This document shows positions 1,405 to 2,618 of a DNA stretch of 46,206 nt, in pieces. Origin of the DNA: Escherichia phage mEp332; the sequence record PV340541; one strand, given 5' to 3'. Both the position numbers and the translations under genes were made by a program. Each line of letters starts with the position of its first letter. The stretch's first letter is position 1. The notes under the pieces were generated by a model. It had not been told where the DNA came from. It did not search any database and worked only from the letters and a program-made list of their open reading frames with translations.

Positions 1405-1805
1405 TTGGTGTTCTTTCAGTTCTTCAATTCGAATATTGGTTACGTCTGCATGTGCTATCTGCGCCCACAGCATCCAGTGGTCATAGCAGTCGCTGATGTT
1501 CTCGGCTTCGATAACTCTGTTGAATGGTTCTCCATTCCATTCACCTGTGACTCGGAAGTGCATTTATCATCTCCATAAAACAAAACCCGCCGTAGCGAGT
1601 TCAGATAAAAGAAATCCTCGTCAGTGCGAGGATGCTGTTCATTGCTGCTATACACTTTTTTGCTCTCAACGTAAGCGGTAGCCCATTCTGTTGGGTTGGT
1701 GCAGTTGCTTTTAGGAAATGCTATTTACCCCTTAAATGTCGGCTGAAAGAGCTAAAATCCATGCAAAAAATTTACGCAATTTTGTGTATTATTGTGCAGT
1801 AAGTA

Positions 1806-2408
1806 ATGAGCTATTTTCTGCGCAAAAAATGGATGGTAAATTTGTCCGGGTCAGGAAAAATTTTATGGGCGCTAAACATGAAAAAAGATTCGTATCCTTA
1901 TTTGATTTGCATGACAGTTTCAGGGCTGATCTTTATTTTCCTTTTCTTCTGGTGGCGGGCAGATATCTACAGGGTTACGTTTCTTAATCAGAGTATATCC
2001 CACTATTACATTCTGTTTAGCATGGGAATAGCTTTTCTGTTATCTCTGTTTTGGGTTAAGAAGGGGATAGTAAAACAAAGCGGCTGGAAGAGTCTGTCAG
2101 CATACCTTAAGGTTTATGCAGGGATGTGCATATTTGCTGGATTTTTTCTGATTATACCCCTTACGACACTAACTTATTTTTTGCCTGGAGAGACATCGTC
2201 TTATGTTGCACCGTATCGGTATACTTCCGGTAGTTCAAAAAGTTGTTCTGGAGCTGAGGTGGATGACCCCGATCTACATGAGAATATTCGCATTTGCTAT
2301 CCGTATGGCAATTATGAGTACGATAATATTATCTATGTTGAAAAGAAAATTAATATATTAGGTGCGGTAGTGACATATGCACAGACCGCGCGTGATGATA
2401 CTGAATGA
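1806..2408 (+). CDS. hypothetical multi-pass membrane protein in AT-rich insert (start uncertain; ATG at 1878 gives MKKDSYPYLICMTV...)
   Basis: 200-aa ORF on the strand opposite to the surrounding pL-driven genes; three hydrophobic segments (LICMTVSGLIFIFLFFWW, HYYILFSMGIAFLLSLFWV, VYAGMCIFAGFFLIIPLTTLTYFL) then a Cys/Tyr-containing soluble tail; visibly AT-rich; no lambda counterpart recognised. Confidence 0.6.
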   Translation: MSYFLRKKWMVNLSGSGKILWALNMKKDSYPYLICMTVSGLIFIFLFFWWRADIYRVTFLNQSISHYYILFSMGIAFLLSLFWVKKGIVKQSGWKSLSAYLKVYAGMCIFAGFFLIIPLTTLTYFLPGETSSYVAPYRYTSGSSKSCSGAEVDDPDLHENIRICYPYGNYEYDNIIYVEKKINILGAVVTYAQTARDDTE

Positions 2409-2618
2409 TATAGTATATAGCGGGCAAGTTTTAGTTAATTTATCGAGGTAATATAATTTACCTCGACTCGTTTGTTCTGGTATTAATATTTCGCTTTACG
2501 ACCGATTTTTATCTGATGATATCATGCGGTTTTCATATACTGACTTACTGTCTTTTCTCCGTTAGCGATTTTCTCCTGCTCAGCGATGATTTTATCTTTG
2601 GCTTCTAGTTAATTTCGC

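What the first reader, a model, noticed from the sequence alone, without database searches (positions are those of the whole stretch)
1660..2618. AT-rich opposite-strand membrane-protein insert where lambda has ea8.5/ea22
Between xis and the TraR-like gene, similarity to lambda is lost and an AT-rich segment carries a 176-200-aa ORF on the plus strand, opposite to all flanking pL-driven genes. It has three predicted TM helices and a Cys-containing C-terminal tail, so it needs its own promoter and could be expressed in the lysogen. That is the hallmark of a moron (exclusion, host-surface modification or toxin-like). The start codon is ambiguous (1806, 1833 or 1878) and an overlapping 83-aa frame (1736-1987) exists.
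Basis: partly seen in the sequence, partly recalled or inferred. Interest (0 to 1): 0.6.

Follow-up and report, generated by a model that had tools for sequence, protein, structure and literature searches.

The report
Mobile prophage membrane-protein cassette, function unknown
Where phage lambda carries ea8.5 and ea22, this prophage has a small self-contained gene cassette, also found in phage 434 and about 18% of complete E. coli genomes. It encodes an uncharacterised inner-membrane protein that is real and widespread, with no function tested in anything I could search.

Summary
Lambda homology stops at 1633 and resumes at 2607. The 973-bp replacement has 38% GC against 46-50% in the flanks and carries one plus-strand gene, opposite to the pL operon.

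The gene is real, with dN/dS of 0.08-0.16. Its start is ATG 1878, giving 176 aa. The 1806 and 1833 starts and the 83-aa overlapping frame are not conserved.

The protein has three TM helices and a confidently modelled five-stranded beta-barrel. Its two cysteines are the only invariant residues across the family. The topology is probably N-in, with the barrel in the periplasm.

It matches no Pfam, NCBIfam or PADLOC model and no informative PDB fold.

The cassette (upstream region, gene, hairpin and an Ea22-like fragment) is 98.8% identical in phage 434. It is 76% identical in E. coli P2-like prophages, where it lies in the gpA-gpQ (old/tin) defence hotspot. Rousset et al. 2022 list the family there as 'System #4, 3 TM', and it is absent from their table of tested systems. 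Enterobacter and Citrobacter carry chromosomal copies outside any prophage.

A conserved TGnTAAnTT element and TTGTGCA repeats point to an own, regulated promoter.

My best guess is a lysogen-expressed envelope protein that excludes other phages, held at low confidence. It is a moron of known kind with unknown function.

The parts
1634..2606 (.). Non-lambda replacement segment (the cassette), occupying the place of lambda ea8.5 and ea22
   Evidence: BLASTN breakpoints against lambda. GC is 0.381 against 0.46-0.50 in the flanks. It is 98.8% identical in phages 434 and 2B8. Positions 1741-2608 are about 76% identical to an E. coli P2-like prophage.
1614..1633 (-). tL4-like terminator hairpin of the leftward operon, at the left edge of the cassette. 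It belongs to the lambda-homologous flank.
   Evidence: Terminator scan and fold at -10.6 kcal/mol. Annotated as t-L4 in the phage 434 record M60848.
1772..1798 (+). Three direct repeats at 10-bp spacing: TTACGCA, TTGTGTA and TTGTGCA. This is a candidate regulator-binding or phased-bend element upstream of the promoter.
   Evidence: The block is 77-80% identical to the P2-like copies, while synonymous sites in the gene are only 28-44% identical. The double repeat occurs once in the window against 0.10 expected. Positions 1782-1795 are annotated as a CII site in the 434 record, but that pattern alone is not above chance.
1834..1842 (+). TGgTAAATT, an extended -10-like element. This is the putative promoter; the transcript start is inferred near 1849-1851.
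   Evidence: TGnTAA(A/T)TT sits 44-48 nt before the ATG in the lambdoid copy, in E. coli and Salmonella P2-like copies and in the Citrobacter chromosomal copy. The consensus scan did not detect it, and there is no experimental support.
1878..2408 (+). Protein-coding gene of 176 aa (stop codon included): three TM helices plus a C-terminal beta-barrel domain. It equals CPT_434_36 of phage 434, ECs_0804 of O157:H7 Sakai prophage Sp3, and WP_000120065.1 (annotated there as 200 aa).
   Evidence: Start fixed by homologs. dN/dS is 0.05-0.16. AlphaFold2 pLDDT is 84.4. Annotations.
1899..2183 (+). Membrane part: TM1 about aa 8-28, TM2 about aa 40-60, TM3 about aa 77-102. A conserved periplasmic loop (IYRxTFL) lies between TM1 and TM2, and a lysine-rich loop between TM2 and TM3.
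   Evidence: Hydropathy and loop charges: 5 K/R in loop 2, 1 in loop 1, and a net acidic C-terminal domain. Modelled helices 5-33, 38-61 and 69-101, with a short strand at 34-36.
2187..2390 (+). C-terminal five-stranded beta-barrel domain (aa 104-171). The invariant cysteines are C123 (2244-2246) and C140 (2295-2297).
2443..2466 (+). Terminator-like hairpin downstream of the gene: 9-bp stem, then CUCGUUUGUU
   Evidence: Terminator scan and fold at -18.7 kcal/mol, z -2.4. A hairpin is kept at the same position in the P2-like copy.
2525..2622 (-). Remnants of an Ea22-like gene converging on the cassette gene. GTG-SEIN plus a stop codon lies at 2622-2605. An out-of-frame fragment, LEAKDKIIAEQEKIANGEKTVSQYMKTA, lies at 2608-2525.
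   Evidence: Translation and comparison with lambda Ea22 (VSEINSQALRE...). The P2-like copy has MSEINYQALRE... and LETKDNRIAELEKIA at the same place. RefSeq annotates that as an incomplete ead/Ea22-like protein.

Best explanation
The segment is a self-contained, horizontally mobile accessory cassette (a moron).

**Shown.**
- It holds one real gene (1878-2408) for a 176-aa protein with three transmembrane helices and a C-terminal five-stranded beta-barrel whose two cysteines are invariant.
- The gene moves together with about 115 nt of conserved upstream DNA, a downstream hairpin and an Ea22-like fragment.
- It moves between two accessory regions: the lambdoid exo-xis region and the P2-like gpA-gpQ (old/tin) hotspot.

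**Inferred.**
- Topology is N-terminus in the cytoplasm, with loop 1 and the barrel in the periplasm, where the two cysteines form a disulfide.
- Transcription starts from its own extended -10-type promoter (TGgTAAATT, 1834-1842), modulated through the TTGTGCA repeats.
- The gene runs against the repressed pL operon, so it can be made in the lysogen. During lytic growth it would be opposed by convergent pL transcription.

**Most speculative step.** The membrane-anchored periplasmic domain acts at the cell envelope to block superinfecting phages. It would do so after adsorption, at the periplasm or inner-membrane DNA-entry stage, by binding a phage ejection or tail-tip protein or an inner-membrane entry factor.
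For: **Real gene.** dN/dS is 0.05-0.16 against five homologs.

**Start.** An in-frame stop lies 1-18 codons upstream of the MKK start in all other loci.

**Structure.** pLDDT is 84.4 for the full-length protein and 90.8 for the domain. A short loop-1 strand is modelled on the barrel side. Loop charges fit N-in/C-out. C123 and C140 are the only invariant residues across 27 diverse members.

**Mobility as a unit.** Window 1741-2498 and 2565-2608 align to the E. coli P2-like locus L018 at about 76% identity.

**Hotspot location.** Salmonella, E. coli and Klebsiella homologs all lie between the portal gene and gpA of P2-like prophages. That locus is a described defence hotspot, and the family is listed there as System #4, '3 TM', with 470 occurrences (PMC9122126). 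Its representative is 52% identical to the window protein, E 5e-57.

**Own regulation.** TGnTAAnTT is conserved 44-48 nt before the ATG in different genomic contexts. The repeat block is 77-80% conserved while synonymous sites are saturated. A hairpin follows the gene.

**Retention.** The cassette is in 982 of 5426 complete E. coli genomes. It is annotated as an intact CDS in the decayed Sakai prophage Sp3, whose int and bet are pseudogenes.
Against: - No transcript, promoter activity or phenotype is known. I found no paper that tests the gene, and it is absent from Rousset's table of tested systems.
- The consensus sigma-70 scan finds no promoter upstream, and the Shine-Dalgarno sequence before 1878 is poor.
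- There is no PADLOC, Pfam or NCBIfam match.
- The P2 hotspot also holds non-defence cargo, such as partition systems and the cytolethal distending toxin.
- Copies in five Enterobacter species are syntenic chromosomal genes beside the same GGDEF gene. The Citrobacter, Klebsiella and Cedecea copies are also outside prophages. This fits a general envelope role at least as well as phage exclusion.
- Some P2-type copies are frameshifted or truncated.
- The disulfide and the topology are inferred, not measured.
Confidence: 0.4

Rival explanations
1. It is a host-type envelope protein with a physiological role unrelated to phages, for example envelope stress tolerance, transport accessory, signalling or colonisation fitness. 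Phages would have picked it up and carry it as a lysogenic-conversion gene that benefits the host.
For: Five Enterobacter species keep a homolog at the same chromosomal locus beside the same GGDEF gene, 83-87% identical. In E. mori it lies 17 nt downstream of a LysR gene. Citrobacter has it between rstA and rstB. The Klebsiella and Cedecea copies are not in prophages. It is retained in the degraded Sp3 prophage of O157:H7. The P2 hotspot also holds non-defence cargo.
Against: The family is small, with 61 representatives among 1.84 billion proteins, all within Enterobacteriaceae where checked. In E. coli and Salmonella, every copy whose context I examined lies in a prophage accessory hotspot. 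No domain points to a physiological role.
Confidence: 0.3
2. It is a CII-activated gene of the lysogeny-establishment phase, as the phage 434 GenBank annotation implies. CII would bind TTGT-N6-TTGT (1782-1795) and drive rightward transcription. That transcript would make the membrane protein and could also act as antisense RNA against leftward exo-xis transcripts.
For: The 434 record marks 1782-1795 as a CII site. From the second TTGT to a TAT-ending hexamer (AGCTAT) is 13 nt, the spacing I recall for pRE; this comes from reading the sequence plus my own knowledge of pRE. The exo-xis region is reported to influence CII-dependent promoters and the lysis-lysogeny choice (PMC10789677).
Against: TTGY-N6-TTGY occurs 8 times in the window against 10.7 expected. 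The genuine pI and pRE sites are TTGC...TTGC, while this one is TTGT...TTGT. The repeats are equally conserved in P2-like prophages, which as far as I know have no CII. A hairpin follows the gene directly.
Confidence: 0.1
3. It is a membrane-damaging effector, either an abortive-infection protein or a holin-like toxin. On infection or stress it would permeabilise the inner membrane and kill the cell.
For: It is a small multi-TM protein in a defence hotspot. Transmembrane proteins in known defence systems are commonly regarded as suicide effectors (PMC9122126).
Against: It is a single gene with no sensor partner conserved beside it; the neighbours differ in every context. The most conserved part is a folded soluble barrel, not the helices. 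It is kept as a chromosomal gene in Enterobacter. It is not in the lysis cassette.
Confidence: 0.08
4. It is a non-functional ORF: a chance open frame or a decaying remnant in AT-rich junk DNA.
For: Some P2-type copies are frameshifted or truncated. There is no family annotation at all.
Against: dN/dS is 0.05-0.16. The fold is confidently predicted. Homologs span 17-78% identity across genera with invariant cysteines. The gene is annotated as an unbroken CDS in every ≥95%-identity E. coli hit listed, and 915 genomes carry such a copy.
Confidence: 0.02

Closest known systems
Phage 434 gene CPT_434_36 ('putative membrane protein'; the partial ORF-22+ of GenBank M60848); E. coli O157:H7 Sakai ECs_0804; WP_000120065.1
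   Same: It is the same gene at the same position. The DNA is 98.8% identical and the protein 99.4%.
   Different: Those records annotate other starts: 188 aa from a TTG in 434, and 200 aa in RefSeq. None assigns a function.
'System #4' (no Pfam, 3 TM, 470 occurrences) of the P2-like gpA-gpQ hotspot, Table S5B of Rousset et al. 2022 (PMC9122126)
   Same: It is the same protein family: 52% identity over 168 aa, E 5e-57, with the same three TM helices and the same CSGA...ICYP motifs. Closer P2-borne copies (78% and 71% identity) share the upstream region and the hairpin too.
   Different: The window copy sits in a lambdoid prophage, in the exo-xis region, not in a P2-like hotspot. The family appears in Rousset's catalogue but not in their table of tested systems.
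Classical lambdoid morons and lysogenic-conversion genes (lambda lom, bor, rexAB, sieB; HK97 gp15, from my own knowledge)
   Same: It is an AT-rich insert absent from a close relative. It has its own terminator-like hairpin and probably its own promoter, and its orientation is independent of the surrounding operon. The product is an envelope protein.
   Different: There is no sequence or fold relation to any of them. The window's real SieB homolog is elsewhere, at 6708-7262. Expression from the prophage has not been shown.
Lambda ea8.5 and ea22 (exo-xis region genes)
   Same: They occupy the same genomic slot between orf55/tL4 and the TraR-like orf73 homolog.
   Different: They are on the opposite strand, unrelated in sequence, and soluble rather than membrane proteins. 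Only five codons and a short out-of-frame fragment of an Ea22-like gene survive here.
Short NfeD-type proteins (B. subtilis YuaF, E. coli YbbJ): TM helices plus a C-terminal OB-fold barrel. This is a recollection of mine, used only as a lead.
   Same: The overall architecture is similar: a few N-terminal TM helices followed by a small five-stranded barrel.

Membership tests
Moron (autonomous accessory unit in a phage genome, in the sense of Hendrix and colleagues) | Present in one phage but absent at the same position in a closely related genome | tested here: met
   Lambda homology of 97-98% on both sides, with a 973-bp non-homologous segment between.
Moron | Base composition differs from the surrounding genome | tested here: met
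   GC is 0.381 against 0.46 and 0.50 in the flanks, in the lowest 4.4% of windows.
Moron | Flanked by its own promoter and terminator | tested here: inconclusive
   A terminator-like hairpin lies at 2443-2466. A conserved TGnTAAnTT sits at a fixed distance from the ATG in several genomic contexts. However, the sigma-70 consensus scan gave no hit and there are no transcript data.
Moron | Expressed from the repressed prophage | not testable with these tools
   This needs RNA-seq, 5'-RACE or reporter fusions in a lysogen.
P2-hotspot 'System #4' three-TM protein family (Rousset et al. 2022, Table S5B) | Sequence homology to the family representative over its full length | tested here: met
   BLASTP gives 52% identity over 168 aa, E 5e-57.
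P2-hotspot 'System #4' three-TM protein family | Located between gpA and gpQ of a P2-like prophage | tested here: not met
   The window copy is in a lambdoid prophage between orf55 and the TraR-like gene. Its homologs at 56-78% identity are at the P2 locus. So it belongs to the protein family but not to that genomic locus.
Known anti-phage defence systems (PADLOC-DB 2.0) | Match to a defence-protein model | tested here: not met
   No match at E up to 1.
SieB superinfection-exclusion family (PF14163) | Match to the Pfam model | tested here: not met
   No Pfam match for this protein. The window's true SieB is at 6708-7262, E 1e-29.
NfeD-like membrane proteins (PF01957) | Match to the NfeD model, or to NfeD structures | tested here: not met
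CII-dependent promoter (pRE, pI, paQ type) | TTGC-N6-TTGC straddling a poor -35, in a phage that encodes CII | tested here: inconclusive
   The site reads TTGT-N6-TTGT. The relaxed pattern is not above chance, 8 against 10.7 expected. The repeats are conserved in P2-like phages. CII binding was not tested.
Class I holins (three TM helices) | A short protein in the lysis cassette with a charged cytoplasmic C-terminus (definition from my own knowledge) | tested here: not met
   It is 176 aa with a folded 70-aa barrel. It lies in the early-left accessory region, far from the lysis genes.

The most novel reading that the evidence does not exclude
This orphan family is a three-TM anchor plus a disulfide-stapled periplasmic barrel. 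It shuttles between the lambdoid exo-xis region and the P2 old/tin hotspot and is present in about 18% of complete E. coli genomes, including O157:H7. It could be a new single-gene superinfection-exclusion or defence system that blocks phage genome entry at the periplasm or inner membrane. Its expression could be set by an unidentified regulator that binds the TTGTGCA direct repeats.
Probability: 0.3. Interest if true: 0.55.

Novelty: new member of a known kind. Interest (0 to 1): 0.4.

Why it matters
The gene sits in classical phage 434, in the O157:H7 Sp3 prophage and in roughly one in six complete E. coli genomes. It is among the most frequent cargo of the P2 defence hotspot. Yet I found no function, no domain annotation and no experiment for it.

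Showing what it does would fill a visible gap in the annotation of model lambdoid phages. It would also test whether hotspot position predicts defence for single membrane proteins. The shared Ea22-like fragment documents an exchange of accessory modules between lambdoid and P2-like phages.

It is not a new kind of element. It is an ordinary moron with an unknown payload.

Tried and rejected
- **Family libraries.** Pfam, NCBIfam, PADLOC and PHROGs gave nothing informative. PHROG 1416 has unknown function and matches only the C-terminal part.
- **PDB by sequence.** No match, using profiles of 19 and of 27 sequences.
- **NfeD-like idea.** Rejected for lack of any sequence or fold match.
- **Rfam.** Nothing real in 1350-2900.
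- **CII-site annotation.** Judged weak.
- **Starts at 1806, 1833 and 1842, and the 83-aa overlapping ORF.** Rejected on conservation.
- **Lipoprotein idea (LIC in TM1).** Rejected because that cysteine is not conserved.
- **Weak match to a 3074-aa protein (P0122).** Nine weak repeated matches that I did not follow up; it looks like a beta-rich repeat artefact.
- **The search for related loci with the broad alignment.** Failed because no stretch was conserved enough. The narrower alignment gave 10 loci.
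Full report
**1. What is there**

The window is a lambdoid prophage read from its att site. It has int (90-1160, minus strand), xis (1138-1356, minus) and the lambda orf55 homolog (1396-1563, minus). Further on come a TraR/DksA-type zinc-finger gene (2619-2840, minus; PF01258, E 5e-9), then exo, bet and the rest.

BLASTN against lambda gives two blocks of 97-98% identity. Window 2-1633 matches lambda 27724-29355, and window 2607-4326 matches lambda 30380-32100. The 973 bases at 1634-2606 therefore replace the 1024 bases of lambda that hold ea8.5 and almost all of ea22.

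The segment has 38.1% GC, against 46.0% and 49.8% in the flanks. Only 4.4% of equally long windows in the whole prophage are as AT-rich. Its single long ORF is on the plus strand, against the leftward operon.

**2. The gene is real, and its limits can be fixed**

Homologs at 42-78% identity from E. coli, Salmonella, Klebsiella, Enterobacter, Cedecea and Citrobacter all begin MK(K/N)xSYP, at the position of Met25 of the 200-aa ORF.

In ten other loci an in-frame stop lies 1-18 codons upstream of that methionine. The 24-codon extension exists only in the 434-type lineage, and two of the three amino-acid differences between the window and phage 434 fall within it. The gene is therefore 1878-2408, encoding 176 aa.

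Nei-Gojobori estimates give dN/dS of 0.05-0.16 against five homologs. The C-terminal domain is the more constrained part.

The overlapping 83-aa frame (1736-1987) is interrupted by stops in the Salmonella, Klebsiella, Cedecea and Enterobacter copies, and it lacks its ATG in phage 434. It is not a gene.

**3. The protein**

Hydropathy shows three segments, at roughly residues 8-28, 40-60 and 77-102.

AlphaFold2 with a 19-sequence alignment gives mean pLDDT 84.4. It models three long helices (5-33, 38-61, 69-101), a short strand at 34-36 and five strands after residue 105. The C-terminal 77 residues modelled alone give pLDDT 90.8 and the same five-stranded barrel.

The loop between TM2 and TM3 carries five Lys/Arg. 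Loop 1 carries one, and the C-terminal domain is net acidic, with 6 basic and 12 acidic residues. By the positive-inside rule this puts the N-terminus in the cytoplasm, and loop 1 and the barrel in the periplasm.

In an alignment of 27 members reaching down to 17% identity, the only invariant columns are C123 and C140. They flank the hairpin formed by strands 2 and 3. A structural disulfide in the periplasm is the simplest reading. This is inference; I could not measure distances in the model.

**4. No known family**

- Pfam, NCBIfam and PADLOC give no match.
- PHROG 1416 has unknown function and covers only the barrel.
- PDB sequence profiles give nothing.
- An exhaustive profile search of 1.84 billion cluster representatives finds only 61 relatives.

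The family is a small orphan family. Every member for which an organism was reported is in the Enterobacteriaceae, apart from one misbinned contig.

**5. Where else it occurs**

The same DNA, 98.8% identical, is in phages 434 and 2B8. These are the only two of 50,697 phage records that encode the protein. In the 434 genome it is CPT_434_36, 'putative membrane protein'. The older 434 record M60848 shows its 5' end as the partial 'ORF-22+'.

The cassette is in 982 of 5426 complete E. coli genomes, at ≥95% identity in 915 of them and at 60-80% in 67. Examples are E. coli 042, in a prophage at the lambda att site next to ybhC, and O157:H7 Sakai. In Sakai it is ECs_0804 of prophage Sp3. There the gene is annotated as a normal CDS, although int and bet are pseudogenes.

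The 60-80% class, and the Salmonella and Klebsiella relatives, are in P2-like prophages. They always lie between the portal gene Q and the replication gene A. Rousset et al. 2022 describe this as the old/tin position and a hotspot of anti-phage systems (PMC9122126).

Their Table S5B lists, as System #4, a protein with no Pfam domain, '3 TM' and 470 occurrences. Its sequence is 52% identical to the window protein, E 5e-57. It does not appear in their table of tested systems.

More distant members (36-56% identity) are not in prophages. In five Enterobacter species the gene sits at one and the same chromosomal locus, next to the same GGDEF gene. In Citrobacter portucalensis it lies between rstA and rstB. 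In a Klebsiella species it lies between a bgl-type PTS operon and a LysR gene. In Cedecea it is in a chromosomal region with no phage genes within 5 kb.

**6. It moves as a unit with its own control region**

Window 1741-2498 and 2565-2608 align at about 76% with an E. coli P2-like prophage, L018 6864-7619 and 7713-7756. The shared DNA therefore includes about 135 nt upstream of the gene, the gene itself, the hairpin and the distal non-coding part.

*The repeats.* Upstream, the block at 1766-1800 is 77-80% identical to the E. coli and Salmonella P2-type copies. Synonymous sites in the gene are only 28-44% identical (pS 0.56-0.73). The block consists of direct repeats with a 10-bp period: TTACGCA, TTGTGTA and TTGTGCA in the window, and three times TTGTGCA in Salmonella.

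*The putative promoter.* Further down, TGnTAA(A/T)TT lies 44-48 nt before the ATG in the lambdoid copy, the E. coli and Salmonella P2-type copies and the Citrobacter chromosomal copy. It looks like an extended -10 element. A start near 1849-1851 would leave a leader of about 28 nt. It would also put the 1806 and 1833 ATGs outside the transcript, in agreement with section 2. The repeats would then be centred near -54, -64 and -74, where activators commonly bind. Phased A-tracts causing a bend are an alternative.

*Limits of this evidence.* All of this is inference. The consensus sigma-70 scan finds nothing upstream, and the Shine-Dalgarno sequence in the window copy is poor.

*The CII annotation.* The 434 record labels 1782-1795 as a CII site. 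The pattern TTGY-N6-TTGY occurs 8 times in the window against 10.7 expected. The true pI and pRE sites are TTGC...TTGC. To my knowledge P2-like phages have no CII, yet they conserve the repeats. I therefore rate CII control as a minor possibility.

*The hairpin.* Downstream, a 9-bp hairpin at 2443-2466 followed by CUCGUUUGUU is picked up by the terminator scan. It folds at -18.7 kcal/mol in context, z -2.4.

**7. Traces of how it got there**

On the minus strand, the ea22 start survives as GTG-SEIN followed by a stop (2622-2605). An out-of-frame piece, LEAKDKIIAEQEKIANGEKTVSQYMKTA (2608-2525), follows it.

In the P2-like copy the same place holds MSEINYQALRE... and LETKDNRIAELEKIA. RefSeq calls this an incomplete ead/Ea22-like protein.

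The three-TM gene and a convergent Ea22-like gene thus form an older pair. Ea22-like sequences occur in both phage families, so they are a plausible recombination substrate for the exchange. This last point is inference.

**8. What it most likely does**

*Firm conclusions.* It is a mobile accessory cassette. It encodes a conserved inner-membrane-anchored protein with a small barrel domain that is probably periplasmic and disulfide-bonded. It probably has its own regulated promoter. It is oriented so that it can be transcribed when pL is repressed.

*The function is not established.* I commit, with low confidence, to envelope-level exclusion of other phages. Three things support this: the cassette lives in two accessory regions of temperate phages, one of them a documented defence hotspot; it is a single gene without partners; and its conserved part faces the periplasm, where incoming phage proteins and DNA pass.

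*Main rival.* A host-type envelope function carried as a conversion gene is nearly as likely. This is supported by the syntenic chromosomal copies in Enterobacter.

*Minor rivals.* These are CII-dependent expression at lysogeny establishment, an abortive-infection membrane effector, and a non-functional ORF. The last is effectively excluded.

**9. Novelty and score**

The gene is already annotated as hypothetical or 'putative membrane protein' in phage 434 and in RefSeq genomes. Its family is already catalogued as hotspot cargo. New here are:
- the corrected start;
- the domain picture with the invariant cysteine pair;
- the conserved promoter-like element and the repeats;
- the link between the lambdoid exo-xis slot and the P2 hotspot through a shared cassette that includes an Ea22-like fragment.

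It is a new, uncharacterised member of a known kind (a moron or hotspot cargo gene), not a new kind of system. I score interest at 0.4. The gene is common and sits in model phages, so it is worth a simple experiment, but nothing about it is very surprising.

Noticed in passing
window 2525-2622 (minus strand): There is a degraded Ea22-like gene here: the start plus five codons (VSEIN) and a stop, then an out-of-frame coiled-coil fragment, LEAKDKIIAEQEKIA... The same pairing of an Ea22-like gene with the three-TM gene exists in E. coli P2-like prophages. This suggests module exchange between lambdoid and P2-like phages through Ea22-like sequence.
   Followed up: partly
window 1772-1798: Three 10-bp-spaced direct repeats (consensus TTGTGCA) are more conserved than synonymous sites between the lambdoid and P2-like copies. 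No regulator is identified. The CII-site annotation in the 434 record looks like a pattern match only.
   Followed up: partly
window 6708-7262 (+): A SieB superinfection-exclusion homolog (PF14163, E 1e-29) lies on the opposite strand next to the N gene (7263-7676, minus). This prophage therefore already carries at least one recognised exclusion gene.
   Followed up: no
window 8036-9160 (-): A 374-aa ORF with no Pfam match lies directly beside the cI-like repressor (9096-9809, Peptidase_S24 plus HTH_3), in an AT-rich kilobase (GC 0.40). This is the position where lambda has rexAB, so it is a candidate immunity-region defence gene.
   Followed up: no
window 15358-16455 (-): A full-length Gram-negative porin gene (PF00267, E 2e-156) lies on the opposite strand in an AT-rich stretch (GC 0.40-0.41). 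It lies between the early genes and the structural genes, and is another conversion-type moron.
   Followed up: no
window 43000-45300: This is the most AT-rich part of the window (GC 0.34-0.35), at the right end beyond the tail-fibre genes. It carries an AraC-family regulator gene (44454-45206, plus strand). A Lom homolog lies at 38313-38915.
   Followed up: no
L027 (contig JARKOR010000073.1, labelled MAG 'Candidatus Nanosynbacter sp.'): This 3.5-kb contig encodes the protein at 99% identity, next to lambda-type exo and bet (97-99%). It is almost certainly E. coli prophage DNA misbinned into a Saccharibacteria MAG.
   Followed up: partly
L028 3614-10051 (Citrobacter portucalensis): The homolog (56% identity) lies in a 4.4-kb stretch that separates the genes matching rstA and rstB, which are adjacent in E. 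coli as far as I recall. The stretch also holds NicO, an APH(6)-type kinase, a DUF1294 protein and a hypothetical protein.
   Followed up: no
P0147 and P0154 (E. coli P2-type variant); L037 3593-4168: N-terminally truncated or frameshifted forms of the P2-type copy are very common. The 112-aa form was seen on 1000 or more contigs, and the copy is annotated as frameshifted in O121:H19. This probably explains why PHROG 1416 is only 90 positions long.
   Followed up: partly
P0122 (3074-aa protein from the representative search): It gives nine weak repeated matches to profile positions 122-158, the Cys-hairpin region. It has only sub-threshold Pfam hits (adhesin and filamin-type repeats). This is probably a beta-repeat artefact, but I did not examine it.
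   Followed up: no
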